Assembly (NCBI GenBank): GCA_900315245.1
Contig: OMYJ01000003.1
Coordinates: 32,121-96,120 of the forward strand
Direction: 5' to 3'
DNA length: 64,000 nucleotides
From: an uncultured Bacteroidales bacterium
GTDB taxonomy: Bacteria > Bacteroidota > Bacteroidia > Bacteroidales > WCHB1-69
How positions within the stretch are numbered: the stretch's first letter is position 1; each line of letters starts with the position of its first letter. Of the stretch, positions 17,844 to 34,260 are shown piece after piece. A program made the translations under genes and the position numbers. The notes below the pieces were generated by a model. That model had not been told where the DNA came from, made no database searches, and saw only the letters and a list, made by a program, of their open reading frames with translations.

Positions 17844-17848
17844 AAAAA

Positions 17849-17865
17849 CATCGCCTGTGGCGATG
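17849..17865 (-). terminator. Hairpin/terminator after paralogue C (same module as 17076-17096)
   Basis: catcgcc tgt ggcgatg, followed on the minus strand by uuuuuau. The flanking ~70 nt is repeated at 17097-17160 and 17866-17930. Confidence 0.55.
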
Positions 17866-17889
17866 CCCTTTGCTTCAATTCTGTTTTTT

Positions 17890-18216: not shown

Positions 18217-18233
18217 TACACGAGTTTTTTTGT

Positions 18234-18266
18234 TTTAACGTACTCGAAATATCAGGTCATAAAAAC
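18234..18266 (+). repeat. 33-nt direct repeat (copy 2)
   Basis: Identical to 16789-16821. Confidence 0.9.
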
Positions 18267-18395
18267 CTATAGAATGGTACGTTTTGTGAATCATATTATT
18301 ACAACGATTTTTGTCTAAAAAAATTGTGCAACTTCGCATTTTTTGAACTTCTCAATTAACGGCACAAAACTACAAAAAAAGCCGTCACAATCTGC

Positions 18396-18550
18396 AACAG
18401 CTTTCAAAAACTGATCAAACATCCGAAAATGCGATTTTGGGTTATGGTGTCACTTGGTAGTCAAAGTTGGTGGACAGTCCGATGAGGGAGTCCATCACCG
18501 AAGCGATGAAACCGAGCAGTTTGGACTTGAAGCCGGGGCGTTTGTCTGCT
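18396..18550 (-). repeat. Second copy of the IS-end-like repeat, with the ORF tail ..KRPGFKSKLLGFIASVMDSLIGLSTNFDYQVTP*
   Basis: Reverse-complement homology to 3108-3218. Confidence 0.4.
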
Positions 18551-18811
18551 ATATGATGCGGTACTTTTTGCCCTCCTTGTTTATGTCCTATGATTTTTCG
18601 TTATGTTAAAGCGGTTGTCCGAATCTGTTACGGTCGCGAAGGTTGGCGGGCCGTTAGGTCTGCGGGCATAAATCGAATCCCACGCCGTTTTCCATAATCC
18701 CCGCACACCTACGGCGTGCGGAAAAACCAAAACGCCGCCCCCATCCCTACCGAGCCCTTCAGCCCTAACGGGCTGTGTCGTGTATGAATAGTCTTCCGTT
18801 GATACGGTCGC

Positions 18812-19201
18812 GAATGTTAACACGAAGGCTAACCAACAGCGCAGCTAACCAACACGAAGTAATTAACAGCCGCAGGCTCACCAACAGCGAAGCTCACCAA
18901 CAGCCGTAGGCGCATCAACAGCGAAGCTAACCAACAGCCGAAGGCTAACCAACAGCGAAGCTTACCAACACGAAGTAATTAACAGCCGCAGGCTTACCAA
19001 CAGCGAAGCTAACTAACAGCCGAAGGCTAATCAACAGCCGAAGGCTAACCAACAGCGAAGCTAACTAACAGCCGAAGGCTCACCAACAGCCGAAGGCTAA
19101 CCAACAGCGAAGCTAACTAACAGCCGAAGGCTAACCAACAGCGAAGCTAACCAACAGCCGAAGGCTAATCAACAGCCGAAGGCCTGTCAACACGAAGTAA
19201 A
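18812..19201. repeat. Right half of the split dyad array (16/18-nt units)
   Basis: gaatGTTAACacgaaggctaaccaacagc..., then alternating AACAGCCGAAGGCTNANY and AACAGCGAAGCTNANY, ending in caacacgaagtaa. It overlaps the last 12 codons of the CPBP ORF. Confidence 0.95.
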
Positions 19202-19962
19202 CAAACTCCTGCGACGGCTAACACCAAGCTTGCGACGACCACCTTCCAGTCCGGCTGGATGATGACCGGTGTTTTCGCCATCTGCATCTCTCCAAGCCCC
19301 ATCCAGCAGTAAACGGCGAGGAGCGTGGCGGTGAGGTTGCATCCGGCGTGGAGCGCCACGCTATACCAGATGTTTCGCGACCAGATATACACCATCCCGT
19401 AGAACAGGGCGCTGATGAAAGCCCCCGGAAAGTTGCGCACGTGGAGTATTCCGAACAGGAAGGCCATCACCACGCAGACGGCGATCTGTGCGCAGCGACG
19501 GCGGAAAGGGGAGATGGCCATCTGCCTGAAACACAGCTCTTCGAGAACCGGCGCAAGCAGCACGGCGTGTACGCTTGACAAAAGGTCTTCGCGCAGCTCT
19601 GCGGTCGTGTAGGTGAGTGGTTCCATCTTCACTGTATGGACCAAAGACGTGATGCCATAAACGATATACTCTTCCGCCACGAGCCACAGAGGCGCTATCA
19701 GCAACAGTCCTGCGATGATGGGGAATCGCGGCAGCTTCAGCGAAAATTGTCCGGCTTCGGGAAACACTTTCGGTTCGACACGGCACACGAGGAAGATCGT
19801 CAGGGCGATGCCCGCCAAGGTGAGCAGCCACGTCAGCAGTTCGCCCGTGAAACCCGGATTGTCGCCCGCGACCGGCATAGCCGTCACATAGATGATGGCT
19901 GTGCCGTATGCCGCCGCCAGTATCGGCATCAAGGGTCTTAGGAATTGGGTTGCTTTGTTCAT
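19165..19962 (-). CDS. CPBP-family intramembrane glutamic endopeptidase (CAAX protease/Abi)
   Basis: LAPVLEELCFRQ and FGILH motifs in a multi-pass membrane protein. Start chosen at MNKATQFLRPL (the ORF is open up to 20055). The C-terminus LLRVDRPSAVD* is encoded by the repeat array. Confidence 0.7.
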   Translation of the reverse strand: MNKATQFLRPLMPILAAAYGTAIIYVTAMPVAGDNPGFTGELLTWLLTLAGIALTIFLVCRVEPKVFPEAGQFSLKLPRFPIIAGLLLIAPLWLVAEEYIVYGITSLVHTVKMEPLTYTTAELREDLLSSVHAVLLAPVLEELCFRQMAISPFRRRCAQIAVCVVMAFLFGILHVRNFPGAFISALFYGMVYIWSRNIWYSVALHAGCNLTATLLAVYCWMGLGEMQMAKTPVIIQPDWKVVVASLVLAVAGVCLLRVDRPSAVD

Positions 19963-20044
19963 ATCGTTAAAATCAACAGTTTCTTGCTTTGACAATTGTG
20001 TTCGGGCTTCTTGAATATGTGGAACTCTTGATTTGCGCGTGACC

Positions 20045-20851
20045 TCATACCTCAATCATTGCGGAAAAGTCAAACCCATTAGTCAGATGTTCCCCGTGGG
20101 AGACGTACCCCAACTGATTAGACACGATACAAGTTCTACCAATTTGAGCCTTTATGTTGCGGTGCGAGTGGCCGTATATCCAGAAGTCAATGCCACTGTC
20201 GGCAATAAAGTCGCCAAGTTCCACGGTGAATGCACCGTTAATCGTGCTATTCCGGAATTCCTCGGCGGTGCACAGCTGCGTGGGCACGTGATGAGTGAGC
20301 ACAATTTTTGTTTTTGCAGTGCTTTCCGTAACCGCTCGTTTGATGAATGCAAGACAACGCTCGTGCTCACGGTTGAAGTCGTCGGCGGTCAGCCGGTGAT
20401 TGCCGTAAATAATACGGTAAAAATCGCTGACATTGCGTTCCGTCAGGAAAGCATTATGCGGCTCAATCTTCGACCACAAAGCCGATACTATGATATCGAC
20501 TTCTCCGATATGCACAATACCATTGTAGTAGGCGTGCACGTTGTGACGGATCTCTTTGCAGTATCCTTCCGGTATGGAAGAGAGGTCGTAATATCCGTAA
20601 AATTCGTGGTTACCCAAACAGACAATCACCTGTTTGTAATGGTTGCTTGCCCAATCCCAAAATTCGTATTGGGAATAGGTGTCGTGTTTGGAGTCCGGCA
20701 AATCAAGGTAAGCCGTGTCGCCGGCAACAAGCAGTATGTCGCCCGTCACTTCCAATGGATGTTCGGCAATCCATTGTCGGTTTTGCGGAAACTCCAAATG
20801 CAGGTCGCTGACATATTGGATGCGCAGACATTGTGGAGTATAAGATGCCAT
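20045..20851 (-). CDS. Metallophosphoesterase
   Basis: IQYVSDLHLEF..VTGDILLVAGD..GNHEFY..THH..GHSH. The ORF stays open upstream to 21067; that extension (..LVYVGGAMAGVYATDPAA..) looks like the N-terminus of a different protein. Confidence 0.7.
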   Translation of the reverse strand: MASYTPQCLRIQYVSDLHLEFPQNRQWIAEHPLEVTGDILLVAGDTAYLDLPDSKHDTYSQYEFWDWASNHYKQVIVCLGNHEFYGYYDLSSIPEGYCKEIRHNVHAYYNGIVHIGEVDIIVSALWSKIEPHNAFLTERNVSDFYRIIYGNHRLTADDFNREHERCLAFIKRAVTESTAKTKIVLTHHVPTQLCTAEEFRNSTINGAFTVELGDFIADSGIDFWIYGHSHRNIKAQIGRTCIVSNQLGYVSHGEHLTNGFDFSAMIEV

Positions 20852-21050
20852 CTGATGCATGGTTTCAAGGAGCATATCCACGCGTTCGATCTCATCTGAC
20901 GGCAATGCGCACTCCAACTCCTCAGGGAAATTGGAGCGTTGCAACGTGGCGGCTGGATCCGTGGCATATACGCCGGCCATTGCCCCGCCGACATACACAA
21001 GCCGCTCGTTAAGGTCTTGCATACCCTCCGCCACCTCTTGCAGACGTTCG

Positions 21051-21581
21051 TTATTGGTTTTCGACATAGCGGTTGATATGTTTGGTGAGTTCTTCAATGG
21101 CGATCTCCCTCTCCCGGGCGCGGCCGAGGCGGAGCGTGTCGGCAATCACCAACAATTGGTAAAGCTCATCATCTTGCAAAACGGCGCCTGGAACAGAAGG
21201 ATATAAGGGCTCTATTTGTTGTCCTCTGGCATTTCCTTTCGTATAATGCCATACATAGCTCTCACTGCTGTTTGAGATTTGCTCCTTCAGGGGTGAGGCG
21301 CTGATGTAGGCCGGCACGCCGCGTACAACTCGTCCGGTGACGGCGGGAAAGACATACTGCAAGCCGTGAATCAGAAACTCCTGCAAAGCCATTGTGTTGA
21401 CACGCTTTTTATTGCGGTCTATCAGTTGAACATTCCGGCAACGCTCCAAACTCTCGCTCACACTGGATGAGCTCATCCCTAACGATTCCGCCAGCTTCCG
21501 GCACGACAAATGCTGTCCTGACGGTGTCATTTTCTTTAACAATATTACAATATCTTGCGGCTTCATCATATTATATATCAA
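21051..21581 (-). CDS. wHTH protein, putative transcriptional regulator / antitoxin-like
   Basis: LSCRKLAESLGMSSSSVSESLERCRNVQLI is a helix-turn-helix. I recognise no precise family. Confidence 0.45.
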   Translation of the reverse strand: MIYNMMKPQDIVILLKKMTPSGQHLSCRKLAESLGMSSSSVSESLERCRNVQLIDRNKKRVNTMALQEFLIHGLQYVFPAVTGRVVRGVPAYISASPLKEQISNSSESYVWHYTKGNARGQQIEPLYPSVPGAVLQDDELYQLLVIADTLRLGRAREREIAIEELTKHINRYVENQ

Positions 21582-21657
21582 TCATTTACAATTAACTGTT
21601 CGCCGTTCGCGATTTTCGAACGCATTCACCGCGCAAAAATACAAAAAAAGCAAAGCC

Positions 21658-22776
21658 TTACAGATTCTTGCTAAAAAACTCCGCCACCGTGTCCCACGGG
21701 ATGTAGTTGCCCTCGCCGCCGTCGTAGAGGTCGCAGTGGGTGGCGCCGGGGATGATGAGCAGCTGCTTGTTGTCAGGGTTGGGATTCGGCTTGCCGATGA
21801 AGTTGTAACCTTCGGCCTTGCCATCCACCATATAGTGGTAGGCCGCCTCGCCGAAGTAGCGGCTGTGGGCCTTCTCGCCGTGCATCACGAGGACGGCGGA
21901 ACGGATCTCGTTGATGTAGTAGAGGAAGCGGGCGTTGGCGTATGCCTGCGTGCCGATGACGCGCCAGCCATCGTTGCTGTTGCCACTGCGCTTGTGGTAG
22001 CCGCGCGGGGTCTTGTAGTAGGCGTGGTAGTCTTTCACGAACTGCGGAACCTCATCGGGCAGCGGGTCGATGACGCCGCCGGCCATCGCCAGCGGGTCGG
22101 CGAGACGCTGCTTGCCCATTGCCTCACGTGCAGCATGGCGTGACTCCTCTTTGTCGTCGCTGTCGTAGTAGCCGTTGCCGCTGACGCGGGTCATGTCGTA
22201 CATCGTGCTGGCCACGGTGGCCTTGATGCGCGGGTCGGCAGCGGCGGCATTCAGGGCGATGCCACCCCAACCGCAGATGCCGATGATGCCGATGCGCTCA
22301 GGGTCCACATTCTCTAACTGCGACAGGAAATCAACAGCGGCCATAAAGTCCTCCGTGTTGATGTCGGGCGAGGCCGTGCGACGGGGCTCGCCGCTGCTCT
22401 CACCGGTGTACGACGGGTCAAAAGCCAGTGCCACGAAGCCGCGTTCCGCCATCTTCATAGCGTAGAGGCCACTGCTTTGCTCCTTCACGGCGCCGAAAGG
22501 TCCGCTCACAGCGATGGCGGGGAGACCCCTCCCCCCGCCATCCCCAAAGGGGAGGGAGCCTTTTGGCTCATACAAATCTGCGGCCAAGGTCAGGCCGTAC
22601 TGTGTTTCAAACGTCACCTTGCGGTGGTTCACTTTGTCGCTGAGGGGGAACACCTTGTCCCACTCCTGCGTGAGGTTCAATTCCTGTTTCATATTCTCGT
22701 TGTTATTTGTTTCTTGCTTGTTGCCGCAGGCGGCCAGTGACAGTGCCGCGAGGGCGAAGAGGATGAGTTTTTTCAT
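21658..22776 (-). CDS. Alpha/beta hydrolase lipoprotein
   Basis: Lipobox MKKLILFALAALSLAACGN. It has a nucleophile-elbow context IGIIGICGWGG and a C-terminal GATHCDLYD. Confidence 0.8.
   Translation of the reverse strand: MKKLILFALAALSLAACGNKQETNNNENMKQELNLTQEWDKVFPLSDKVNHRKVTFETQYGLTLAADLYEPKGSLPFGDGGGRGLPAIAVSGPFGAVKEQSSGLYAMKMAERGFVALAFDPSYTGESSGEPRRTASPDINTEDFMAAVDFLSQLENVDPERIGIIGICGWGGIALNAAAADPRIKATVASTMYDMTRVSGNGYYDSDDKEESRHAAREAMGKQRLADPLAMAGGVIDPLPDEVPQFVKDYHAYYKTPRGYHKRSGNSNDGWRVIGTQAYANARFLYYINEIRSAVLVMHGEKAHSRYFGEAAYHYMVDGKAEGYNFIGKPNPNPDNKQLLIIPGATHCDLYDGGEGNYIPWDTVAEFFSKNL
22519..22560. repeat. In-frame G/C-rich palindromic element inside the hydrolase CDS (encodes GSLPFGDGGGRGLP)
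   Basis: ggggagacccctccccccgccatccccaaaggggagggagcc. Its reverse complement aligns with the element at 299-338. Confidence 0.6.
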
Positions 22777-22790
22777 ATCGGTTATTATAC

Positions 22791-23225
22791 GTTAGTTATT
22801 TCATGTTGGTTACTTCGTGTTGGTTATTTCATGTTGGTTACTTCGTGTTAGTTATTTCATGTTGGTTATTTCATGTTAACACGAAGTAATTAACAGCCGA
22901 AGGCTTACCAACAGCGAAGCTAATTAACAGCCGAAGGCTTACCAACAGCGAAGCTAATTAACAGCCGAAGGCTTACCAACAGCGAAGCTAATTAACAGCC
23001 GAAGGCTAACTAACAGCGAAGCTCATCAACAGCCGAAGGCTAACTAACAGCGAAGCTAATTAACAGCCGAAGGCTCACCAACAGCGAAGCTAACCAACAG
23101 CCGAAGGCTAATCAACAGCGAAGCTAACTAACAGCCGAAGGCTAACTATCAGCCGAAGGCTTACCAACAGCGAAGCTAATTAACAGCCGAAGGCTTACCA
23201 ACAGCGAAGCTCATCAACACGAAGT
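22791..23225. repeat. Complete dyad tandem-repeat array (centre GTTAAC at 22875-22880)
   Basis: The left arm starts 14 nt from the ATG at 22776. The right arm ends ..gctcatcaacacgaagt and supplies TSC* of the CDS ending at 23214. Confidence 0.95.
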
Positions 23226-23759
23226 GATCTCTCGTATCACTTTCGCCGGACTCCCCGCCACCACCATATTGTCGGGCACGTCCTTGTTGACCACGCTGCC
23301 AGCCGCCACGATAGCGTTCTCGCCGATGGTGACGCCTGCCAGCACTTTCACGTCGGCGCCGAGCCATGCGTTGCGTTTCACCACGATGGGTTTGGTGAGC
23401 AGCGTGTGACGCGCGGCGGGGTCTTCGGGATGGTATTCGGTGGCTAACACGCAATGCGGACCGATGAAGACGTCATCCTCGATGGTGATGCCGCCTATGG
23501 CCAACAGCGTGCAACCGAAGTTGAGGAAGCAGTCGTTGCCGAAGCGCACGCCCGGTCCGTAGTTGATGTTGAGCGGCGTAAACACTCGCACGGTGTCGGG
23601 CACCTCGCTGCGGGTGATCTCGCGCAGATAGTCGCGCACCTCCGCTTCGGTGTGGTAGCCGCTGTTCATCTCGGCGCAGAGCTGCATCGTGCGCTGCACG
23701 TCGGCGTAGAGGTCGTCGCTGCCGACGTAGTCTTTTCCTGTGGGTTTGTCGTTCGTCAT
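23214..23759 (-). CDS. Maltose/galactoside-type sugar O-acetyltransferase (hexapeptide repeat)
   Basis: Start trimmed to MTNDKPTG (ATG 23759). LNINYGPGVRFGNDCFLNFGCTLL..EDPAARHTLLTKPIVVKRNAWLGADVKVLAGVTIGENAIVAAGSVV..VVAGSPAKVIR. Confidence 0.8.
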   Translation of the reverse strand: MTNDKPTGKDYVGSDDLYADVQRTMQLCAEMNSGYHTEAEVRDYLREITRSEVPDTVRVFTPLNINYGPGVRFGNDCFLNFGCTLLAIGGITIEDDVFIGPHCVLATEYHPEDPAARHTLLTKPIVVKRNAWLGADVKVLAGVTIGENAIVAAGSVVNKDVPDNMVVAGSPAKVIREITSC

Positions 23760-23760
23760 T

Positions 23761-24378
23761 TTACCGGATGAAATTCGTGAATACCGCTTCTTCCGCCTCG
23801 GGCAGACCGTTGCGCTCCTTCTCCGCGGCGATGGCCTTGACGAGGAAGGCGATGTTGCGGCCGAGGATGCGCATGCACTGCACGCCCTCCGCATCCTGCA
23901 TGACGTCTTCGGCACAGTGACCGTGTACCATGTTCCAGTAGCGGGTGCTGGCGATGGGCATCTCGCTGATGGTGAAGTACTTGTTCAGCTGGTCGAAAGT
24001 GGCGGTGGTGCCGGCGCGTCGGGCCGAGCAGACCGCGGCGCCCACCTTCATGCACTTCCGGAAGTGCGTGCTGAAGAAGAGGCGGTCGAGGAAGGATTTC
24101 ATCGTGCCGGCAATGCCCGCGTAATAGACCGGCGAGCCGATGACCAGTGCGTCGGCTTGCTCGAATTTCGGGGCGACTTCGTTCACGATGTCATCGAAGA
24201 CGCATTTGCCTGTTTCGTAGCATTTCCCGCAGCTGATGCAGCCGTGGATGTTTTTGTGTCCCACGTGGACGATTTCGGCTTCAACGCCGTTTTTCTGTAA
24301 TTCTTCCGCCACAAGGCTCAGGGCGGTGAAGGTGCAGCCCTTCGCGTTGGGACTGCCATTGATAAGAAGTGCTTTCAT
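23761..24378 (-). CDS. Flavodoxin-family NAD(P)H-dependent oxidoreductase (iron-sulfur flavoprotein type)
   Basis: MKALLINGSPNAKGCT..HGCISCGKCYETGKCVFDD..ALVIGSPVYYAGIAGTMKSFLDR. Confidence 0.8.
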   Translation of the reverse strand: MKALLINGSPNAKGCTFTALSLVAEELQKNGVEAEIVHVGHKNIHGCISCGKCYETGKCVFDDIVNEVAPKFEQADALVIGSPVYYAGIAGTMKSFLDRLFFSTHFRKCMKVGAAVCSARRAGTTATFDQLNKYFTISEMPIASTRYWNMVHGHCAEDVMQDAEGVQCMRILGRNIAFLVKAIAAEKERNGLPEAEEAVFTNFIR

Positions 24379-24385
24379 ATCTTTT

Positions 24386-24697
24386 AAGTGAATGTTTATT
24401 ACTTCGTGTTGATTACTTCGTGTTGGTTACTTCGTGTTGGTTATTTCATGTTGATTATTTCATGTTGGTTATTTCATGTTGGTTATTTCATGTTGGTTAT
24501 TTCATGTTAACACGAAGTAATTAACAGCGAAGCTAATTAACAGCCGAAGGCTAATCAACAGCGAAGCTAACTAACAGCCGAAGGCTAATCAACAGCGAAG
24601 CTAACTAACAGCCGAAGGCTAATCAACAGCGAAGCTAACTAACAGCCGAAGGCTAACCAACAGCGAAGCTAACTAACAGCCGAAGGCTAACTAACTA
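24386..24697. repeat. Complete dyad array (centre GTTAAC at 24506-24511)
   Basis: The boundary aagtgaatgtt lies 8 nt from the ATG at 24378. The right arm runs into the TAG stop (24695-24697) of the next gene. Confidence 0.95.
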
Positions 24698-25825: not shown

Positions 25826-25843
25826 AATATTTTGAATTGTTTG

Positions 25844-27187
25844 TTATTCTATTTTTCCAAACTGTTCCATCCCCACCATCGGCTTGGTGTCGATCAGTTT
25901 CAGCGACTTCACCATTTTGGCGGTGCCCTCCTTGTACTTCTTGAAATGGGCGGTCTGGAGATGGCTCTGGTAGGCCTCTTTGTCGGCGTAGATTTCGAGG
26001 ATGTAGATTTTGCAGGGGTCTTCTTTGGTCTGCATTGAGAAGAGGGTTAGCACGCCGGGCTCCACCTTCACTGAGGTCTCCCCAACTTCCTTTGCGTAAG
26101 CCAGATACGCTTCCAGATACTCCGGCACCACCTCAATTTCGGCGAGGCGGACGATGCGCTCGCCGTATTGCCGCAGGGGCACGTTCTCACCGAACAGCCG
26201 GCGGGCGTTGTCGGTGAAGATGTCCTGCGGGTTCAGTCCGTGCGAGGCGAGACGGCCTTCCAAGGCCTGCTTGCCGCTGATGAGCACCGGCTCGGCCACG
26301 TACGGGTAGTCGCTGCCGTAGAGGATATGGTCGGGCGTGGTGATGGTGAGGATCGCGTCGAGGACGTCATCGGTAGGCGCGCCGGCCAGATCGTAGTAGA
26401 GCCGCGACAGGTTGGCATCGACATCCACGGGCTGCATGATGCCCTGCTTCACCATCACGGGCAGCAGAGAACGGAAGCGCGGCAAGGCGTTGGGCAGGAA
26501 AGAGCCGCAGTGCGGCACCACTACCTTCAGGTTCGGGTAGCGCACCAACACGTTGTGGGCCACCATGTTGAGCACCGCACGAGAGGTTTCTGCCAAGTAT
26601 TCGTAGCTCGCCAACGGCACATCGGCAATCAACTGCGCGTTCACCGCCGAGGGTTTGTGCGGATGCAGGATGACGACGGCCTTTTGCGCGTTGAGGTAGG
26701 ACATAAGGGTGTCCAAGTCGGGGTCGCCGAGGTACTGCCCATAGCTGTTGGTGGCCAACTTGATGCCGTCGGCACCCAACACCTCCAAGGCGTAACGTGC
26801 CTCTTCCAACGCGTGCGGCACATCGGGCAGGGGCAGCGCGGCGCAGAACATAAAATGCCCCGGATAGCGGGCCTTCAGCGCGGCGCACTCTTCGTTGTAC
26901 TTGCGGCACACTTTTGCCGAAGCCTCCGCGTCGCCGAAGAAGGGCTGCGGAGCGGGCATCGTCAGCACCGAAGTCTGGATGCCGGCCTTGTCCATGAAGG
27001 CGATATGCTTCTCCACGTCCCAGCCCGGGATGGGAAACCCCTCGTCCATCTCGGCACCGTTGGCCTTGATGTAGTCAAGGTAACCCTGCGTGATGGCGTG
27101 ACTGTGGAGGTCGATCTGAGCGGAAACGTGCGCCATAAGCAATGTCATAAAGCTGATTATCAGTATTTTCCTCATAGTGTGAGACAC
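25844..27187 (-). CDS. Amidohydrolase-family (ACMSD-like) protein with C-terminal ABM monooxygenase-like domain
   Basis: Signal peptide, IDLHSHAI, ..VILHPHKP..VVPHCGSF..GSDYPY. The tail reads ..IYILEIYADKEAYQSHLQTAHFKKY. Confidence 0.65.
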   Translation of the reverse strand: MSHTMRKILIISFMTLLMAHVSAQIDLHSHAITQGYLDYIKANGAEMDEGFPIPGWDVEKHIAFMDKAGIQTSVLTMPAPQPFFGDAEASAKVCRKYNEECAALKARYPGHFMFCAALPLPDVPHALEEARYALEVLGADGIKLATNSYGQYLGDPDLDTLMSYLNAQKAVVILHPHKPSAVNAQLIADVPLASYEYLAETSRAVLNMVAHNVLVRYPNLKVVVPHCGSFLPNALPRFRSLLPVMVKQGIMQPVDVDANLSRLYYDLAGAPTDDVLDAILTITTPDHILYGSDYPYVAEPVLISGKQALEGRLASHGLNPQDIFTDNARRLFGENVPLRQYGERIVRLAEIEVVPEYLEAYLAYAKEVGETSVKVEPGVLTLFSMQTKEDPCKIYILEIYADKEAYQSHLQTAHFKKYKEGTAKMVKSLKLIDTKPMVGMEQFGKIE

Positions 27188-27381
27188 TCTCTTTTTTTTC
27201 TTGCAAAAATAGGGATTTTTTTATTCCATCGTGTGCTCCCAGTCGCCTCGGGTGTCGATGCCGGTGTCCGTGTTCCATAGGCTAAAGTTTATACGTAAGC
27301 CCTGTCCTTCTTACAGATTCTCGTCATTGTTTCAAAAAAGTTTGTACTTTTGCATTTTGTAATAATTGAAAAACTATCATC

Positions 27382-28485
27382 ATGAAGAAATCATTGTTTG
27401 TGGCTGTGCTGTTAATGCTTGCCGGAATGACACTGAATGCTCAGGAGAACAACTACGCGAAGAGCGATTTTGTTCCCGGCGACGAAATCATATTCGACGA
27501 CAACTTTGAACACGAGAAACTTGGGGAATTCCCGCTGCGATGGGACTTGCTGGATGGCTATGCGGAGACCGCGCAGCAGAAGGGTCGCAATGTTCTGGCG
27601 TTCACCGACAACGGTCTGGGACAGGTGATGCCGCTGATGAAAGAGAAATGGGATTGGCTACCTGAGGTGTTCACGGTGGAGTTCGACCTCTACGTGGCCC
27701 CGATGAATTCGGCAGACGAGGAGGAGACATCGCTCGATATGAGCATTTATTTCGGCGACCGCGGTGACGAAAGCTACTACAACGCCTCGAGTTATGTGCG
27801 TTTCTGGTACAGGGAAGACGGGTCGTGCAACTTGACGTGGTCTCTGCTGAAACCGGACGGGAGTAGCCAGTCGAGTGGAGAAAAGATGTTGGGGCTGACC
27901 CCGGGCACCAGCGACTACTTAGAGAAGGACAATCCGGTGGTTGCCGGCGAGTGGAACCACTTCGCCTTTTCGTTCAACAAGCGGGCTTTCAAGGGCTATG
28001 TGAATGGCGTGCGCATGATCAACGTGCCGGCGATGAAGGCGCCGGGCTACCTCTTCTTCGCCAGCGGAGCGTACTATCGCTACACGGGGTTGAGCAACGT
28101 GCGCATCGCCCAGGGCGCCGTGCCGCTCTACGACCGTTTGACCACCGACGGCAAGATTGTGACCTACGCCATCACCTTCGAGAGCGGCAAGGCCGACCTC
28201 AAACCGGAATCCACCATTGAAATCAATCGCGTGGCCAAGCTGATGCAAGAGCACACCGACCTCATCTTCGAGGTGCAGGGTCACTGCGACAACACCGGAA
28301 CCGACGCCATAAACGATCCGCTGAGCCAGAAGCGTGCAGAAGCCATCGTGGATGCCCTGGTGAAACTGGGTATCGACAAATCACGTCTCTCGGCCGTGGG
28401 CAAAGGATCACACTCCCCCATCGCCCCCAACACCACAGAGGAAGGCCGTGCCAAGAACCGCCGTGTGGAATTTGTAAAGAAATAA
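27382..28485 (+). CDS. OmpA-family protein
   Basis: Signal peptide MKKSLFVAVLLMLAGMTLNAQ and a C-terminal OmpA domain FESGKADLKPES...GHCDNTGTDAINDPLSQKRAEAIVDALV..GRAKNRRVEF. Confidence 0.8.
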   Translation: MKKSLFVAVLLMLAGMTLNAQENNYAKSDFVPGDEIIFDDNFEHEKLGEFPLRWDLLDGYAETAQQKGRNVLAFTDNGLGQVMPLMKEKWDWLPEVFTVEFDLYVAPMNSADEEETSLDMSIYFGDRGDESYYNASSYVRFWYREDGSCNLTWSLLKPDGSSQSSGEKMLGLTPGTSDYLEKDNPVVAGEWNHFAFSFNKRAFKGYVNGVRMINVPAMKAPGYLFFASGAYYRYTGLSNVRIAQGAVPLYDRLTTDGKIVTYAITFESGKADLKPESTIEINRVAKLMQEHTDLIFEVQGHCDNTGTDAINDPLSQKRAEAIVDALVKLGIDKSRLSAVGKGSHSPIAPNTTEEGRAKNRRVEFVKK

Positions 28486-28490
28486 GAGAA

Positions 28491-29117
28491 TGATTTGGTT
28501 ACTTCGTGTTGGTTACTTCGTGTTGGTTACTTCGTGTTGATTATTTCATGTTGATTATTTCATGTTAACACGAAGTAATTAACAGCCGCAGGCTAACTAA
28601 CAGCGTAGCTAATCAACAGCCGAAGGCTAACTAACAGCCGAAGGCTAACCAACAGCGAAGCTAACCAACAGCCGAAGGCTAACTAACAGCCGAAGGCTAA
28701 CCAACAGCCGAAGGCTAACTAACAGCCGAAGGCTAACCAACAGCCGAAGGCTAACCAACAGCCGAAGGCTAACCAACAGCCGAAGGCTAACCAACAGCGA
28801 AGCTAACCAACAGTCGAAGGCTAATCAACAGCGAAGCTAACCAACAGCCGAAGGCTAACTAACAGCCGAAGGCTAACTAACAGCCGAAGGCTAACTAACA
28901 GCCGAAGGCTAACCAACAGCGAAGCTAACTAACAGCCGAAGGCTAACCAACAGCGAAGCTAACCAACAGCCGAAGGCTAACTAACAGCCGAAGGCTAACC
29001 AACAGCGAAGCTAACCAACAGCGAAGCTAATCAACAGCCGAAGGCTAACTAACAGCGAAGCTAACCAACAGCCGAAGGCTAACTAACAGCCGAAGGCTAA
29101 CCAACAGTCGAAGGCTA
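28491..29117. repeat. Complete dyad array (centre GTTAAC at 28564-28569; right arm about 550 bp) between convergent genes
   Basis: It begins 6 nt after the TAA of 27382..28485. The last unit ..cgaaggcta provides the TAG stop (29115-29117) of the GNAT gene. Confidence 0.95.
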
Positions 29118-30275
29118 TTTCAGCTCCAACCTCAGCACCCTGATAGGTCTGTCTTTTCCTTGATACTGGGTCTCGTCGATGCAGGTTTCTCCGGTGGGTT
29201 GGAATCCACACTTCTCCATCACACGGCCGGAGGCGGGATTGTCAACGAAATGCCCGCTGATGAGCGATTGGATGTCCGTCGTTCGGCGGATATAGTCTAA
29301 CATCGTTTGCAGCGCTTCCGTGCAGATGCCTCGGTTCCAGTACGGTTTGGCCACCCAATAGCCGCAGAGGGGCTCCCCCTCGCGGGCGGGGAGATTGCAC
29401 TCGCACGAAGGACCGTAGCCGATGGCCCCGATGGCTTCTCCCGTCGCGTTGAGTTCGATGGCCCAGTTGGAGTCGTTGTGGAATACCGTGCGGATGATCT
29501 CTAAGCTTTCCTCTCTGCTGTTGTGCGGTGGCCAGCCCGCCCGAGGTCCCACGTCCGGGTCGGAGGCGTATTTGAACAAGGAGTCGGCGTCGCTCTCAAA
29601 CCAGGGACGAAGTGTCAGCCTCTCGGTCCGCAGCATCAGTTTGGCCTTTTCGGCGAAAGGCGGCAACTGCCCATCGTTATAGGCTTTCGCCTTTCTGGGG
29701 AAACCTTTGTCGTACGCTTCGAACGCTTCGGGGTTCTCATCAGCCACGAAATAGCCCTTCGGCGGACAATAGGTGCCCTCGCGGTTGCCCCAATAGCCAG
29801 GAATCAGCTCCTGGGCGAGGAAGAAAGGTACTTCCTCCTGCGGCATATCATGGTAATGGATGCGGAGCTTGCTGGCCAGACCGAAGCCCGCGTGTTTGTA
29901 AAACTCGATATTGCCCTCCATCTGAAGCATGCCGACCCCCATCTCACGCGCCTTCTCCAATGCATAGCGAAGGAGTTTCAGCCCGTAGCCTTTGCGCTTG
30001 TAGTCGGGGTGAATGCTGATGGGGCCGAAGGTCCATGAAGGGAAGGCTGTCCCATCGTCAAGGAGGATTTCGGCTTTCGAGAACATCACGTGACCGATCA
30101 GCTTGCCGTCTTCTTCCATCACGAAGTCCAGTTCGGGGATGAAATCGGGATTGTTTCTGTATTGATTGAGCACATAATGCTCCGTGCATCCGGGACGATA
30201 GACGTTCCAGAACGCATTGCGGGTGAGGTCCTCCACCTCGCGATAATCTTCGGGTTGCTCAAGTCGGATAGTCAT
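29115..30275 (-). CDS. Tandem GNAT-family N-acetyltransferase
   Basis: Two acetyltransferase halves: ..HPDYKRKGYGLKLLRYALEKA.. and ..VAKPYWNRGICTEALQTMLDY.. Confidence 0.8.
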   Translation of the reverse strand: MTIRLEQPEDYREVEDLTRNAFWNVYRPGCTEHYVLNQYRNNPDFIPELDFVMEEDGKLIGHVMFSKAEILLDDGTAFPSWTFGPISIHPDYKRKGYGLKLLRYALEKAREMGVGMLQMEGNIEFYKHAGFGLASKLRIHYHDMPQEEVPFFLAQELIPGYWGNREGTYCPPKGYFVADENPEAFEAYDKGFPRKAKAYNDGQLPPFAEKAKLMLRTERLTLRPWFESDADSLFKYASDPDVGPRAGWPPHNSREESLEIIRTVFHNDSNWAIELNATGEAIGAIGYGPSCECNLPAREGEPLCGYWVAKPYWNRGICTEALQTMLDYIRRTTDIQSLISGHFVDNPASGRVMEKCGFQPTGETCIDETQYQGKDRPIRVLRLELK

Positions 30276-30316
30276 AGTCTATTTTATGTCTATTTTATCG
30301 GATGAAATTCGTTTAA

Positions 30317-30535
30317 GTGAATGTTGGTTACTTCGTGTTAGTTACTTCGTGTTAGTTACTTCGTGTTAGTTATTTCATGTTGGTGACTTCGTGTTGGTGA
30401 GTGAATGTTAACACGAAGTCATTAACAGCGAAGCTAACTAACAGCGAAGCTAATCAACAGCCGAAGGCTAACTAACAGCGAAGCTAATCAACAGCCGAAG
30501 GCTAACTAACAGCCGAAGGCTCATCAACACGAAGT
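30317..30535. repeat. Complete dyad array (centre GTTAAC at 30407-30412)
   Basis: The boundary gtgaatgtt is at 30317. The right end ..ggctcatcaacacgaagt supplies TSC* of the ClbS-like CDS. Confidence 0.95.
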
Positions 30536-31054
30536 CTTCAGCTTCTTTTGGTGCGTCTTCAACATCTTCAACGCCTGCTTGTAGGGACTCGTGGTGACAC
30601 TCGTGAAGTAAGCCGCCATATCGGTGGTGTAGGTGCACTTGTAGTGGCCTTTGGTGAAAAGTTCCTCCTCGGAGAAGCTGCCCGCCAGCTGAATCATTTC
30701 GTCATGGGTCTGCTCCAGAAGCCGCTGCGCCTCTTTGAACGAGGTGCTCTGGTGTTTTTCCACCAACATCTTGTCCATTTCGTGGTAGTTTTTGCGGTAT
30801 TCGTCGGGCAGATAGTCCTTTTGACGGCCTTCGCGGATGTTGTTCACAAATTCGCTCATCAGCACTTGCCATTCATAAAGGTGTATGAGGAGGTCGCGGG
30901 CGCATTGGTCGTAAATCCACCGTGCACCGCATTTTTTGGGGTCATTGGCGAACTGGAAGGTCGCGTTCAGTTCGTCATCTGTCATTTTGCCGATTTGCTC
31001 GTTCAGTTTCGCATAACTGTCCGACATGGCTGCTAAGAGTTCGTTTTTGTCCAT
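30524..31054 (-). CDS. ClbS/DfsB-family four-helix-bundle protein (DUF1706)
   Basis: Start trimmed to MDKNELL, because the -7 box at 31097 overlaps the longer ORF. ..CARDLLIHLYEWQVLMSEFV.. Confidence 0.65.
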   Translation of the reverse strand: MDKNELLAAMSDSYAKLNEQIGKMTDDELNATFQFANDPKKCGARWIYDQCARDLLIHLYEWQVLMSEFVNNIREGRQKDYLPDEYRKNYHEMDKMLVEKHQSTSFKEAQRLLEQTHDEMIQLAGSFSEEELFTKGHYKCTYTTDMAAYFTSVTTSPYKQALKMLKTHQKKLKTSC

Positions 31055-31096
31055 TGTCGTTTTGGCTTTCACATTTGTTTTATTCAAAAAACCTTG

Positions 31097-31104
31097 CAAA
31101 GATA
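31097..31104 (-). promoter_or_regulatory. -7 box (CAAAGATA on the + strand) for the ClbS-like gene
   Basis: ccttgcaaagatac, 43 nt upstream of the ATG at 31054. Confidence 0.5.
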
Positions 31105-31132
31105 CAACTTTTCTTAATTGAAGCTGAAAGCT

Positions 31133-31277
31133 GGTTACTTCGTGTTGATTACTTCGTGTTGATTATTTCATGTTAACACGAAGTCATTAACAGCCGAAGG
31201 CTAACCAACAGCGAAGCTAACCAACAGCGAAGCTAATCAACAGCCGTAGGCTAATCAACAGCGAAGCTAACCGACAG
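31133..31277. repeat. Short complete dyad array (centre GTTAAC at 31172-31177) between divergent promoters
   Basis: ggttacttcgtgtt gattacttcgtgtt gattatttcatGTTAACacgaagtcatt aacagccgaaggct... Confidence 0.95.
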
Positions 31278-31324
31278 CCATATTCTTTTGCAAAATATTT
31301 TTTTGCCATGTAAGAAAATAGTCG

Positions 31325-31332
31325 TATTTTTG
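31325..31332 (+). promoter_or_regulatory. -7 box TATTTTTG for the ferritin gene
   Basis: gtcgtatttttgcaacc, 65 nt upstream of the ATG at 31397. Confidence 0.5.
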
Positions 31333-31396
31333 CAACCGAAAAGCAGGAACGTCATTAATCCGTCTTTTCGACAACAATCTATAAATAACAATAATT

Positions 31397-31912
31397 ATGC
31401 TTAACAAAAAAGTAGCCGATCTGCTTAACGATCAAATCAACAAGGAGCTTTACAGCGCCTATCTCTATCTTGATATGTCCAACTATTTCGAGCGCCGCGG
31501 TCTGAACGGCTTCGCCAACTGGTATATGATTCAGGCCCAGGAGGAGCGCGACCACGCTATGCTGTTCTACCGCTACATGCAGAACAACGACTGCCCCGTG
31601 ACGCTGGATGCTATCGCCAAGCCCGACAAGGTGTTCAAGAAAGATATGGACGTGCTGAAGGCCGGTCTGGAGCACGAGGAATATGTAACCGCCTCGATCC
31701 ACACTATCTATGACGCCGCGAACAAGGTCAAGGATTTCCGTACTATGCAGTTCCTCGACTGGTTCGTCAAAGAGCAAGGCGAAGAGGAAACCAACGCCCG
31801 CGATATGATCTCGAAGATGGAACTCTTCGGCAGCGACCCCCGCAGCCTCTATATGCTCAACCAGGAGCTCGCCGCCCGCGCCTACAGCGCCCCCAGTCTG
31901 GTACTCGATTAA
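31397..31912 (+). CDS. ftnA: Non-haem ferritin
   Basis: LNDQINKELYSAYLYLDMSNYF..GFANWYMIQAQEERDHAMLFYRYM..LEHEEYVTASI.. Confidence 0.9.
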   Translation: MLNKKVADLLNDQINKELYSAYLYLDMSNYFERRGLNGFANWYMIQAQEERDHAMLFYRYMQNNDCPVTLDAIAKPDKVFKKDMDVLKAGLEHEEYVTASIHTIYDAANKVKDFRTMQFLDWFVKEQGEEETNARDMISKMELFGSDPRSLYMLNQELAARAYSAPSLVLD

Positions 31913-31963
31913 GACAAAGAATACTTCAAAAACACTACTTTTCTTGAAAGAAACAGAAAGGCT

Positions 31964-32667
31964 GATCACTTCGTGTTGATGACTTCGTGTTGATGACTTC
32001 GTGTTGATGACTTCGTGTTGATGACTTCGTGTTAATTATTTCATGTTAATTATTTCATGTTAACACAAAGTAATTAACAGCCGAAGGCTAACCAACAGCG
32101 AAGCTAATCAACAGCCGAAGGCTAACCAACAGCCGAAGGCTAACCAACAGCGAAGCTAATCAACAGCCGAAGGCTAACCAACAGCGAAGCTAACCAACAG
32201 CCGAAGGCTAACCAACAGCGAAGCTCATCAACAGTCGAAGGCTAACCAACAGCGAAGCTCATCAACAGCCGAAGGCTAACCAACAGCGAAGCTAATCAAC
32301 AGTCGAAGGCTAACCAACAGCGAAGCTCATCAACAGCCGAAGGCTAACCAACAGCGAAGCTCATCAACAGCCGAAGGCTAACCAACAGCGAAGCTCATCA
32401 ACAGCCGAAGGCTAACCAACAGCGAAGCTAATCAACAGCCGAAGGCTAACCAACAGCGAAGCTAACCAACAGCGAAGCTAATCAACAGCCGAAGGCTAAC
32501 CAACAGCGAAGCTAACCAACAGCGAAGCTAACCAACAGCGAAGCTAACCAACAGCAAAGCTAATCAACAGCCGAAGGCTAACCAACAGCGAAGCTAATCA
32601 ACAGCCGAAGGCTAACCAACAGCGAAGCTAATCAACAGCCGAAGGCTAACCAACAGCCGCAGGCTCA
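31964..32667. repeat. Largest complete dyad array (centre GTTAAC at 32059-32064; right arm about 600 bp) between convergent genes
   Basis: The left arm uses GATGACTTCGTGTT then AATTATTTCATGTT units. The right arm ends ..cagccgcaggctca, containing the TGA stop (32665-32667) of the reductase gene. Confidence 0.95.
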
Positions 32668-33630: not shown

Positions 33631-33641
33631 AAGGATGTGCT

Positions 33642-34214: not shown

Positions 34215-34260
34215 TGTCCTGATTATATTACAACTCGCTTGATGCTTTCTTCTACGGATT

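What the first reader, a model, noticed from the sequence alone, without database searches (positions are those of the whole stretch)
19165..32667. Cassette-like organisation: 1-4-gene accessory blocks delimited by the arrays (integron-like analogy, speculative)
The arrays separate the following blocks. (1) CPBP, metallophosphoesterase, wHTH and hydrolase. (2) Sugar acetyltransferase plus flavodoxin. (3) CMD-cupin, amidohydrolase-ABM and OmpA. (4) GNAT. (5) ClbS-like. (6) Ferritin. (7) Aldo/keto reductases. The cargo (acetyltransferases, small redox/detox enzymes, immunity-type proteins) and the mostly uniform gene orientation recall chromosomal integron cassette arrays. So does the imperfect palindrome at each gene's 3' end, which resembles attC/VCR hairpins. 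Shared architecture supports common descent of the cassettes. Upstream of the GNAT gene, the word ttatcggatgaaattcgt (30295-30312) is a 17/18 match to the last codons plus stop of the flavodoxin gene (23761-23778, ..TNFIR*). It is joined directly to the array boundary, as if the flavodoxin CDS had been precisely deleted from an array-flavodoxin-acetyltransferase unit. The flanks of arrays 31133 and 31964 also share about 40 nt (acaacttttcttaattgaagctgaaagctg versus acactacttttcttgaaagaaacagaaaggctg). No integrase is present in the window and the units do not fit the attC core consensus, so this is only an analogy.
Basis: inference. Interest (0 to 1): 0.6.

Follow-up and report, generated by a model that had tools for sequence, protein, structure and literature searches.

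The report
Repeat arrays between shuffled gene blocks
A stress and detoxification gene island of an uncultured rumen bacterium is built from gene blocks joined by unusual hairpin-forming repeat arrays, and relatives carry the blocks in other combinations, which looks integron-like but comes without any integron machinery.

Summary
Each array has a 14-mer arm, a GTTAAC centre and an inverted 16/18-mer arm. The gene calls, the 17/18 flavodoxin relic and the shared flanks are all real.

The integron reading is only partly supported.

For it:
- The island is homologous but mosaic across the genus.
- Blocks are added as 'block plus one array'.
- One gene (299 aa) with its own array arm is present or absent after two different upstream genes.
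- Block order changes.

Against membership:
- The genome has only XerC and XerD as tyrosine recombinases, both far from the arrays.
- There is no attC architecture.
- No recombinase was found near arrays in 57 metagenome loci.
- The arrays also sit in conserved core operons (suf-rlmH, hyp, nadA).
- Arrays shrink to minimal dyads or are absent at junctions whose genes stay adjacent.
- Many breakpoints have no array. Enrichment at arrays is significant in the island set (p=0.007) but not in the larger set (p=0.34).

Best reading: a genus-specific, expandable REP/BIME-like intergenic repeat whose same-oriented copies give homology for ordinary recombination to shuffle blocks. The scan noted the same repeat words before in another genome's hyp operon (e1-2838360).

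The parts
16294..16581 (.). Short-unit arm (18 x 14-mer) of a split array, ending in a copy of the centre (GAATGTTAACAC). It reaches to 8 nt before the ATG of the YdeI-like gene (15713-16285, minus).
16582..18810 (-). 2.2-kb insert at the array centre, flanked by a 12-bp direct repeat. It holds three paralogous small ORFs (108-127 aa, no family hit) and its own promoter-like boxes and terminator-like hairpin. Both of its ends are shared with other species while its interior varies.
18811..19197 (.). Long-unit arm (16/18-mers) of the split array, directly after the CPBP stop codon.
19165..22776 (-). Block 1: CPBP/Rce1-like (19165-20055), metallophosphoesterase (20045-21145), 176-aa HTH-like ORF (21051-21581), alpha/beta hydrolase (21658-22776). 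In 6 of 8 compared genomes where the adjacency is broken, an array directly follows the hydrolase. In those genomes the three downstream genes are missing after the hydrolase; in the window they lie between the hydrolase and its array arm.
22791..23222 (.). Array A2 (7 short + 19 long units). Operon-internal: no promoter box before the hydrolase gene. No array units at the same junction in 4 of the 7 genomes that keep it; sequences read for G019 and G067.
23214..24378 (-). Block 2: FMN_red flavodoxin-like reductase (23761-24378) and hexapeptide acetyltransferase (true start right after the reductase stop). This is the most conserved pair of the island: adjacent in 10 of 11 genomes.
24399..24695 (.). 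Array A3 (9 short + 10 long units). No array units at this junction in 5 of the 7 genomes that keep the CMD-cupin/FMNred adjacency; where read (G019), only degenerate short units remain.
24695..28485 (.). Block 3: CMD+cupin (24695-25825, minus), Amidohydro_2+ABM (25844-27187, minus), OmpA-domain protein (27382-28485, plus), with divergent promoter-like boxes at 27211 and 27345.
28495..29117 (.). Array A4 (6 short + 29 long units). Highly variable junction: 4 genomes show 4 different downstream neighbours (7 distinct in 11 observations in the larger set).
29115..30275 (-). Block 4: double-GNAT acetyltransferase (386 aa).
30292..30312 (-). Relic of the last codons plus stop of the FMN reductase, between the array leader and the GNAT start. 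It is also present in G013 and G002. The 11-bp tandem duplication at 30277-30298 is absent from G013 and G002.
30316..30529 (.). Array A5 (6 short + 6 long units). Its centre signature is the same behind ClbS in another species where intact FMNred follows. A related strain has a minimal dyad here.
30524..31099 (-). Block 5: DUF1706/DinB (ClbS-like) gene with its own promoter-like box at 31104.
31135..31279 (.). Array A6 (4 short + 5 long units) between divergent promoter-like boxes. It is replaced by 37 unrelated bases in G019 and in one contig of run X3.
31294..31916 (+). Block 6: ferritin with its own promoter. The same 623-bp module (94.7% identical) lies beside rlmH in the suf locus on one metagenome contig.
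31963..32664 (.). Array A7 (7 short + 31 long units). Variable junction behind the aldo/keto reductase: 8 different neighbours in 15 observations, all with an array.
32665..35760 (-). Block 7: AKR(282)-flavodoxin_4-cyclophilin-like-AKR(321) operon, with a promoter-like box at 35826 and a divergent AraC regulator at 36052-36870.

Best explanation
The stretch is a genus-conserved but mosaic island of stress, redox and detoxification genes. Its intergenic spaces are filled by a genus-specific family of two-armed tandem-repeat arrays.

Each unit is AACA + mini-hairpin + TAAC, with a stem of 2, 3 or 4 pairs around a G-N-A loop. One arm holds units in one orientation and the other arm holds them inverted, and the arms meet at GTTAAC.

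Shown:
- The arrays abut stop and start codons. Three of them are inside predicted operons.
- They change length from minimal dyads (one or two units per arm) to more than 30 units, and at some junctions are absent.
- They also occur in conserved core operons.

Inferred:
- They are an expandable, hairpin-forming intergenic repeat that works like REP/BIME elements.
- All copies in the island point the same way and share tens to hundreds of bases. They therefore serve as portable homology. General recombination within arrays, together with homologous gene ends and leaders next to them, excises, inserts and reorders 'block + array' modules.
- The palindromic centre is a preferred place for DNA to be inserted.

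The result looks like a cassette array but needs no integrase.
For: Distribution:
- The family is restricted to one genus of ruminant-gut Bacteroidales: 28 of 55 genomes of the genus, 0 of 16 genomes of other families of the order.
- 34 stretches in the species collection, all from ruminant MAGs by their titles.
- 0 hits in viral contigs with two patterns.

Structure:
- Unit variants keep the hairpin. ACGAAGT and ATGAAAT are the common short forms, single-change intermediates are absent from the frequent forms, and the loops vary only in the middle base (GAA/GCA/GTA).
- The arrays fold better than shuffles: z -4.6 and -7.8.

Placement:
- Promoter-like TAnnTTTG boxes precede AKR282, ClbS, ferritin, OmpA, AmhABM, the 176-aa ORF and the insert genes. 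None precedes GNAT, FMNred or the hydrolase, so arrays A5, A3 and A2 are operon-internal.
- Terminator-like sites are not enriched: 20 against 23.1 +/- 4.3 in shuffles.
- Core loci with arrays are SufBD|A|RlmH, HypB-IVS protein|A|Fe-S flavoprotein|A|HypA..., syntenic with arrays in G009 and in many metagenome contigs, and NadA|A|M50 peptidase.

Modular evolution:
- 'Block + array' additions are nested between ClbS and FMNred.
- The ClbS block lies upstream of AmhABM-CMDcup in the window but downstream of it in G058.
- The 299-aa gene plus long arm is present or absent behind the hydrolase (G013, L102 against G009, G019) and behind an AKR (G003, L138, L098 against L143, L147).

Homologous rather than site-specific exchange:
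- The last 3-5 long units before the centre travel with the 299 gene whatever the upstream gene.
- The FMNred relic before GNAT, and the promoter region duplicated on both sides of ferritin, are the direct repeats expected from crossovers in homologous flanks.

Centre as insertion spot:
- The 2.2-kb insert has a 12-bp duplication.
- The four-helix-bundle gene lies between the inverted arms in the hyp locus.

Island-only statistic: gene ends with an array in at least half of the genomes have neighbour diversity 0.77 (n=15), against 0.49 (n=30) for ends that never have one, p=0.007.
Against: - The association of breakpoints with arrays is not robust. In the larger set, the probability of a different neighbour is 0.64 (n=29 array-bearing ends) against 0.55 (n=47), p=0.34. 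The noisy pairwise count shows 65-68% broken adjacencies whether arrays are present in both genomes, one or none.
- Many breakpoints have no array in either genome (Flav4 both sides, upstream of CMD-cupin and of AmhABM).
- The genomes are kin, so the tests overstate.
- Most comparison genomes are short-read MAGs in which arrays may be collapsed and contigs end at arrays.
- No direct evidence of transcription through arrays. RNA-library contigs contain array sequence, but contigs cannot show transcripts and DNA may be present.
- Recombination within arrays was not observed, only inferred from end states.
- Array A6 lies between divergent promoters, which fits no RNA-level role.
Confidence: 0.5

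Rival explanations
1. A true site-specific cassette system. The core GTGTTAACATTC at the array centre is a crossover site. Circles of 'leader-gene-long arm-core' are excised and integrated there by a dedicated enzyme, either unidentified or host-encoded (for example XerCD). This would be a functional analogue of integrons.
For: - The 299-aa cassette begins right after the core and ends with a long arm plus the same core.
- The 2.2-kb insert is flanked by the same 12-bp core.
- 24 of 157 centres in the collected loci continue with the same insert end.
- All arrays of the island have one orientation even beside opposite-strand genes.
- One array is added per added block.
Against: - PF00589 hits in the genome: 2. 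One scores as XerD (346 bits, over its cut-off) and one as XerC-like. Both are on other contigs or 62 kb from the nearest array. Integron-integrase models score far below their cut-offs.
- No integrase, resolvase or transposase family among 142 representatives of 241 ORFs within 3.5 kb of arrays in 57 non-redundant metagenome loci, nor in the window.
- Long-arm units upstream of the centre co-travel with the 299 gene, so the crossover was not at the core.
- A canonical-looking dif candidate lies elsewhere (contig C16). The array centre shares only 8 of 11 bases with the XerD-arm motif and has no two spaced arms.
Confidence: 0.15
2. The arrays have nothing to do with the rearrangements. The island is an ordinary hypervariable accessory region shaped by illegitimate recombination and horizontal transfer. 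The arrays are neutral or regulatory intergenic fillers (mRNA 3' stabilisers, unstructured A/C-rich leaders) that happen to sit at gene boundaries, where any viable breakpoint must lie.
For: - No robust enrichment of breakpoints at arrays.
- Arrays in the hyp locus are perfectly syntenic (neighbour diversity 0).
- Arrays are gained, lost or resized at junctions that stay intact: 5 of 7 conserved CMD-cupin/FMNred junctions and 4 of 7 conserved acetyltransferase/hydrolase junctions have no array units, and contigs of runs X4 and X3 replace A5 and A6 by 12 and 37 bases.
- Forward units run up to 8-50 nt before start codons at most arrays read.
- Selfish modules (AbiE-like pair, radical-SAM mobile pair, restriction systems) lie in the island of relatives.
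Against: - The 'block + array' increments, the 299 cassette bounded by arms on both sides in two backgrounds, and the co-travelling arm units are hard to get by chance.
- The island-only statistic favours arrays at variable junctions.
Confidence: 0.25
3. Assembly artefact: the arrays or their positions are produced by mis-assembly of repeats.
For: The arrays are long tandem repeats, which assemblers handle badly. One array on contig C10 holds a run of N.
Against: The same arrays, with the same flanks, occur in at least 27 other genomes of the genus, in 85 metagenome stretches, and in contigs of three DNA runs and one RNA-library run, from two studies. Unique sequence joins the arrays to genes on both sides.
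Confidence: 0.02

Closest known systems
Chromosomal integrons and their attC (VCR-type) cassette arrays, including integrase-less attC clusters
   Same: Runs of mostly same-oriented accessory genes are separated by imperfect palindromes of one orientation. Modules consist of gene(s) plus one 3' repeat element. Modules are present or absent, and reordered, between relatives. The cargo is acetyltransferases and small detoxification enzymes.
   Different: - No intI anywhere in the genome.
- The elements are 145-702 bp of tandem 14/16/18-mers, not single 57-141 bp attC hairpins (size range recalled).
- 0 matches to the attC core consensus (recalled) in 3,088 bases of arrays on both strands.
- Blocks hold 1-4 genes, and several have their own promoters.
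- The same arrays sit in core operons.
REP/BIME elements of enterobacteria (mosaics of repeated extragenic palindromes)
   Same: Both are short hairpin-forming units assembled into variable mosaics in intergenic spaces. Both often lie inside operons just after stop codons, vary in copy number, act as substrates for recombination, and are targets for insertions at the palindrome. The properties of REP/BIME are recalled, not read here.
   Different: - Units here are 14-18 bp in direct tandem within each arm, with one orientation switch, not alternating 35-40 bp palindromes.
- There are only about 14 arrays in 6 loci of this genome, not hundreds dispersed.
- No RAYT-type gene lies next to arrays. 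Four Y1 transposase-like genes exist, none adjacent.
- Genus-wide co-occurrence is confounded: array+ Y1+ 27, array+ Y1- 1, array- Y1+ 19, array- Y1- 8.
rAID-1 recombinase-associated orphan-immunity clusters of gut Bacteroidales (bioRxiv 10.1101/471110; passages read)
   Same: Bacteroidales gene clusters with repetitive intergenic sequences, which the authors call reminiscent of integrons, and with variable gene content.
   Different: rAID-1 is defined by a conserved XerD-family recombinase gene at the cluster and by arrays of immunity genes. Here no recombinase is linked, and the cargo is mainly enzymes. Only the 2.2-kb insert holds three small paralogous ORFs of unknown family.
ORF-bearing intervening-sequence hairpins (23S rRNA IVS protein family, PF05635)
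   Same: In the hyp locus of this genome, a PF05635 gene lies between the inverted arms of one such array, inserted at GTT^AAC.
   Different: No such gene lies in the island of the window. The loop of the split array there holds other ORFs. These arrays are not in rRNA.
Mini-hairpin DNA d(GCGNAGC) (PMC13037366; title and start of abstract seen in the search listing)
   Same: The 16-mer unit carries GCGAAGC. Its variants GCGCAGC and GCGTAGC keep the G and A of the loop.
   Different: That literature concerns the stability of the isolated motif. Tandem genomic arrays of it were not found in the listings of three searches.

Membership tests
Integron | intI-type tyrosine recombinase next to the cassette array | tested here: not met
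   No Phage_integrase hit in 68 window ORFs. The whole genome has 2 PF00589 hits, XerD (346.4 bits, cut-off 329.6) and XerC-like (331.1, cut-off 335.15), on contigs C12 and C9. Integron-integrase models score 151 and 109 bits against a cut-off of 265.
Integron | attC sites: a single imperfect inverted repeat with R''/L''-L'/R' boxes and the GTTRRRY core (features recalled) | tested here: not met
   Arrays are 145-702 bp of tandem units. There are 0 GTTRRRY matches in 3,088 bases on both strands, where about 6 are expected by chance. No attC covariance model was at hand, and Rfam gave no match.
Integron | Cassettes are promoterless, mostly single ORFs in one orientation, expressed from a common promoter | tested here: inconclusive
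   10 of 12 genes lie on one strand. GNAT, FMNred and the hydrolase lack their own promoter-like box. ClbS, ferritin, OmpA, AmhABM and the 176-aa ORF have one. Blocks hold 1-4 genes.
Integron | Cassette gain, loss and reordering with breakpoints at the recombination sites | tested here: inconclusive
   Clear cases are the 'block + array' additions between ClbS and FMNred, the 299-aa cassette and the moved ClbS block. However, many breakpoints have no array, and enrichment depends on the data set: p=0.007, p=0.34, none.
rAID-1 (Bacteroidales) | Conserved XerD-family recombinase gene at the head of the cluster | tested here: not met
rAID-1 (Bacteroidales) | Array of orphan immunity genes | tested here: not met
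   The cargo is enzymes. The three small paralogous ORFs of the insert hit no Pfam or NCBIfam family.
REP/BIME-like intergenic repeats | Short palindromic units in intergenic DNA, within or at the ends of transcription units | tested here: met
REP/BIME-like intergenic repeats | High copy number dispersed over the genome | tested here: not met
   About 14 arrays in 6 loci on contigs C14, C10, C9, C7, C17 and C18.
REP/BIME-like intergenic repeats | Cognate REP-associated tyrosine transposase (RAYT) | tested here: inconclusive
   There are four Y1_Tnp genes, and none lies within 900 bases of array units. The window copy scores below the cut-off of both the IS200 and the RAYT NCBIfam models. The genus 2x2 table is skewed (27/1/19/8) but confounded by kinship and genome size.

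The most novel reading that the evidence does not exclude
The dyad arrays are the joints of an integrase-independent gene-capture system of rumen Bacteroidales. Modules of 'leader-gene(s)-long arm-GTGTTAACATTC core' are excised as circles and re-inserted at any other array centre, either by the host's own recombination machinery or by an unrecognised enzyme. The island would then work as a functional analogue of a chromosomal integron built on a new kind of structured repeat. The same centres also capture foreign DNA: the 2.2-kb insert and the four-helix-bundle gene.
Probability: 0.2. Interest if true: 0.8.

Novelty: new variant of a known kind. Interest (0 to 1): 0.55.

Why it matters
If the arrays really mediate the exchange of gene blocks, they would show that integron-like cassette dynamics can arise without an integrase, from a structured repeat alone. 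This would be in a group of abundant but uncultured rumen bacteria. It would also give a marker for finding accessory-gene hotspots in their genomes.

Even on the sober reading, the repeat family itself was not found in the literature searched. It consists of tandem GNA mini-hairpin units arranged as giant dyads, and it sits inside operons for Fe-S assembly, hydrogenase maturation and stress enzymes. It is therefore a good test case for how structured intergenic repeats spread, resize and destabilise gene order.

Tried and rejected
Only 29100-31990 could be laid, and only on contigs.
- From, the joints 30372>31143 and 30536>29117 in the RNA-library run, and most loose ends, are contigs of other arrays of the family that fit here by their shared units. 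They are not rearrangements. Uncovered bins mean nothing.
- Whether the arrays are transcribed could not be decided from contigs.
- Y1 (HUH) transposase link: four genes, none beside arrays. The genus co-occurrence is skewed but confounded. Left open.
- Xer/dif idea: the centre shares 8 of 11 bases with a recalled XerD-arm motif but has no two spaced arms, and a canonical-looking dif candidate lies on contig C16. Not pursued.
- Rfam gave only a sub-threshold Acido-1 hit (35.5 bits against 50) inside the hydrolase gene, taken as chance.
- Sigma-70-type promoter and terminator scans did not exceed shuffles.
- Viral contigs had no array with two patterns.
- The first pairwise adjacency count is noisy, because of spurious antisense ORFs and paralogues. 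It was replaced by per-gene-end counts. I report all three.
- The 299-aa, 517-aa, 206/271-aa and other cargo proteins were checked as possible recombinases. None is one. The 299-aa protein has a lipoprotein-like signal, and the 206-aa protein is weakly AbiEi-like.
- Literature: three searches listed nothing on such arrays. Paywalled papers are not covered.

Full report
**What is there**

The window is contig C14:32121-96120 of a 3.05-Mb, 21-contig genome. Between 16.3 and 32.7 kb, Tandem Repeats Finder and direct reading show eight arrays of one family.

On the plus strand each complete array reads as follows:
- a run of 14-mers (GTTGGTTACTTCGT or GTTGGTTATTTCAT);
- the centre CATGTTAACACGAAGT;
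- a run of alternating 16-mers (AACAGCGAAGCTAAYC) and 18-mers (AACAGCCGAAGGCTAACC).

The 14-mer is the reverse complement of the 16-mer minus one G:C pair. All units therefore share the plan AACA + mini-hairpin + TAAC, with stems of 2, 3 or 4 pairs around a G-N-A loop, and the two arms are inverted.

Among 609 units from this genome and relatives, three patterns stand out:
- The short units are ACGAAGT or ATGAAAT, a change on both sides of the pair.
- Single-change intermediates do not appear among the frequent forms.
- The loops vary only in their middle base (GAA, GCA, GTA).

The arrays fold as long imperfect hairpins better than shuffles: z -4.6 as RNA and -7.8 as single-stranded DNA. Rfam has no match.

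Pfam confirms every gene call. The arrays delimit the seven blocks as listed, and each array has one GTTAAC at the arm junction.

The 17/18 match upstream of the GNAT gene is exact and extends to 21/22. It is the only 18-mer match with at most one mismatch for that stretch in the window.

The two flanks align over 47 columns with score 21. Five hundred shuffles gave 8.2 +/- 1.7 and none reached 21.

**Where the family occurs**

In this genome the units cluster in six places:
- the island (8 arrays);
- a locus on C10 (4-5 arrays);
- single arrays on C9, C7, C17 and C18.

A 23-base pattern with one mismatch allowed is found in 28 of 55 genomes of the genus. A 30-base pattern is found in 12 of 24 sampled genus members and in 0 of 16 genomes of other families of the order.

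An exact scan of one genome per species finds 34 stretches. All are in ruminant-gut MAGs by their titles, one of them labelled Fibrobacter. Two patterns found nothing in viral contigs.

The arrays are not confined to accessory DNA. They separate the following gene pairs:
- SufBD from RlmH;
- the genes of a HypB / Fe-S flavoprotein / HypA locus, which is syntenic with its arrays in G009 and on many metagenome contigs;
- NadA from an M50 peptidase.

**Placement relative to genes**

In the direction of transcription the order is: stop codon, inverted units, centre, forward units, then the next start codon 8-50 bases later. Several stop codons are supplied by the first unit.

Bacteroidetes-type -7 boxes (TAnnTTTG, motif recalled; 16 found against about 12 expected) lie before AKR282, ClbS, ferritin, OmpA, AmhABM, the 176-aa ORF, the insert genes, and upstream of the short arm before YdeI. 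None lies before GNAT, FMNred or the hydrolase.

Three arrays are therefore operon-internal. One (31135-31279) lies between divergent promoters, where neither transcript should cover it. Terminator-like sites are not enriched.

Parts of the island match in 51 of 55 genomes of the genus, and proteins are 90-97% identical in the closest ones. I fetched the locus from 14 other genomes and 85 array-bearing stretches from metagenomes, 57 of them non-redundant.

The island is strongly mosaic.

For a cassette-like reading:

1. Additions are nested between ClbS and the FMN reductase.
   - ClbS|array|FMNred occurs in G058, G060, G061 and L141.
   - ClbS|array|OmpA-AmhABM-CMDcup|array|FMNred occurs in G019 and L085.
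   - ClbS|array|GNAT|array|OmpA-AmhABM-CMDcup|array|FMNred occurs in the window, L121 and L136.
   - Each added block brings one more array.
2. In G058 the ClbS block lies after CMD-cupin, whereas in the window it lies before.
3. A 299-aa gene (lipoprotein-like signal, no family) starts right after a centre. It ends with its own long arm and centre.
   - It is present behind the hydrolase in G013 and L102 but absent there in G009 and G019.
   - It is present behind an aldo/keto reductase in G003, L138 and L098 but absent there in L143 and L147.
4. The array after GNAT keeps both arms while four genomes show four different downstream sequences, starting at the end of the short arm.
5. The relic before GNAT is shared by G013 and G002, and an intact FMNred-GNAT pair exists on contig L086.

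Against a cassette-like reading:

- Arrays come and go at junctions that stay intact.
  - Of 7 genomes that keep CMD-cupin next to FMNred, 5 have no array units there.
  - Of 7 that keep the acetyltransferase next to the hydrolase, 4 have none (sequences).
  - G002 and a contig of run X4 carry a minimal dyad in place of the 214-bp array A5.
  - G019 and a contig of run X3 carry 37 unrelated bases in place of A6.
- Variable segments are often bounded by an array on one side only. An example is the segment between the GNAT array and AmhABM or CMD-cupin.
- The statistics disagree.
  - The pairwise count gives 65-68% broken adjacencies whatever the array state (noisy).
  - Per gene end in the island set, neighbour diversity is 0.77 (n=15, array in at least half the genomes) against 0.49 (n=30, never an array), p=0.007.
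  - With the metagenome loci and the core loci added, the figures are 0.64 (n=29) against 0.55 (n=47), p=0.34.
  - The genomes are kin, the loci were chosen for having arrays, and short-read MAGs break or collapse at arrays.

**Recombinases**

The window has no integrase. The genome has two PF00589 hits, scoring as XerD and XerC-like and far below the integron-integrase cut-offs. They lie on C12 and on C9, 62 kb from that contig's array.

Four Y1 (IS200-like) genes exist, one of them in the window at 49150-49599, and none lies beside arrays. Across the genus, 27 of 28 array-positive genomes and 19 of 27 array-negative genomes have a Y1 gene. That skew is confounded by kinship and genome size.

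I also scanned the neighbourhood of arrays in the metagenome loci. Of 328 ORFs within 3.5 kb of arrays in 57 loci, 241 had no window homologue. Their 142 cluster representatives contained no integrase, resolvase or transposase family at E <= 1e-5.

The attC core consensus (recalled) has 0 matches in 3,088 bases of arrays.

**How the blocks move: inference**

Three traces point to crossovers in homologous sequence rather than at one fixed site.
- The last 3-5 long units before the centre upstream of the 299 gene are the same behind different upstream genes.
- The GNAT block carries the 3' end of FMNred, duplicated with respect to the complete FMNred further on.
- Ferritin with its promoter (31294-31916) is flanked by two copies of the promoter region of the ClbS/206 operon. 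The same 623-bp module lies beside rlmH on contig L139.

A circle with one array can integrate by a single crossover in any other array of the same orientation. That gives exactly the 'block + array' pattern, so the end states do not exclude a site-specific enzyme acting at the core.

**The centre as a place of insertion**

- The array before YdeI is split by 2.2 kb flanked by GAATGTTAACAC on both sides.
- Both ends of that insert recur in many relatives: 24 of 157 centres continue with the same end. Its interior differs.
- In the hyp locus a PF05635 four-helix-bundle gene lies between the inverted and forward arms, inserted at GTT^AAC.

**Verdict**

The locus is not an integron, and no dedicated machinery was found.

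The best-supported reading (about 0.5) is a new, genus-restricted, REP/BIME-like family of expandable dyad arrays. These sit in operons, and their shared sequence and palindromic centres make gene order around them unstable.

The bolder reading is an integrase-independent capture system. It stays open at about 0.2.

The literature searches listed no description of such arrays. For the closest Bacteroidales precedent, rAID-1, I read only passages; its supplementary figures could not be seen.

Noticed in passing
window 10935-14347 and 4151-6981: Two low-GC (31-35%) islands. The first holds two N6/N4 DNA methylases, an MjaI-like restriction endonuclease and an HTH gene. The second holds another methylase with two unannotated ORFs. 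Restriction-modification cargo therefore borders the repeat island.
   Followed up: no
window 35848-36004: Short tandem repeats (CACGAATGAAT, ATAATTCACG) lie in the divergent AraC/AKR282 promoter region. They resemble the degenerate ATTCAC-type units found at array ends.
   Followed up: no
window 52530-52554, 54789-54849, 56073-56127, 57085-57142: Other intergenic tandem repeats of 7-8 bp units (ATTATCA, TTCACGA, GAATGAT, ATCATCCC) lie outside the island.
   Followed up: no
window 49150-49599: An IS200-like Y1 (HUH) gene, one of four diverged single copies in the genome. It scores just below the cut-off of the IS200 NCBIfam model and far below that of the RAYT model.
   Followed up: partly
window 46222-46554 and 61239-61885: A MazF/PemK-like toxin gene and a HigB/HigA-like pair.
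   Followed up: no
window 32665-33630 versus L050:3920-4375, L058:5153-5608, L052:4235-4705, L062, L067, L085: The 321-aa aldo/keto reductase carries the same internal deletion (N-terminal 81 aa joined to C-terminal 73 aa, 151-166 aa ORF) in at least six relatives or contigs.
   Followed up: no
L139:6879-7501: The ferritin module of the island (94.7% identical, promoter included) lies beside rlmH in the suf locus of another strain, followed by a terminator hairpin. An RNA-library contig of run X15 shows that context.
   Followed up: partly
G000 contig C16, near 276200 on the minus strand: A canonical-looking dif candidate: two 11-base arms around a 6-base spacer, with a perfect match to the recalled XerD-arm motif.
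   Followed up: no
L045:10553-10587 (G000 C10): A run of 35 N inside one array of the hyp locus. It is either an assembly gap or a masked stretch.
   Followed up: no
L033 (contig titled as a Fibrobacter succinogenes MAG): Three exact matches of the array pattern lie on a contig binned to another phylum. This is either a binning error or a transfer.
   Followed up: no
L050:4727-6367, L065:7737-8654, L136:124-3563 and 8953-10053: Relatives carry selfish or defence modules inside the island: an AbiEi-like 206-aa gene with a 262/271-aa partner, a 'radical SAM mobile pair protein B', GmrSD-like genes and an AccI-like restriction endonuclease.
   Followed up: no
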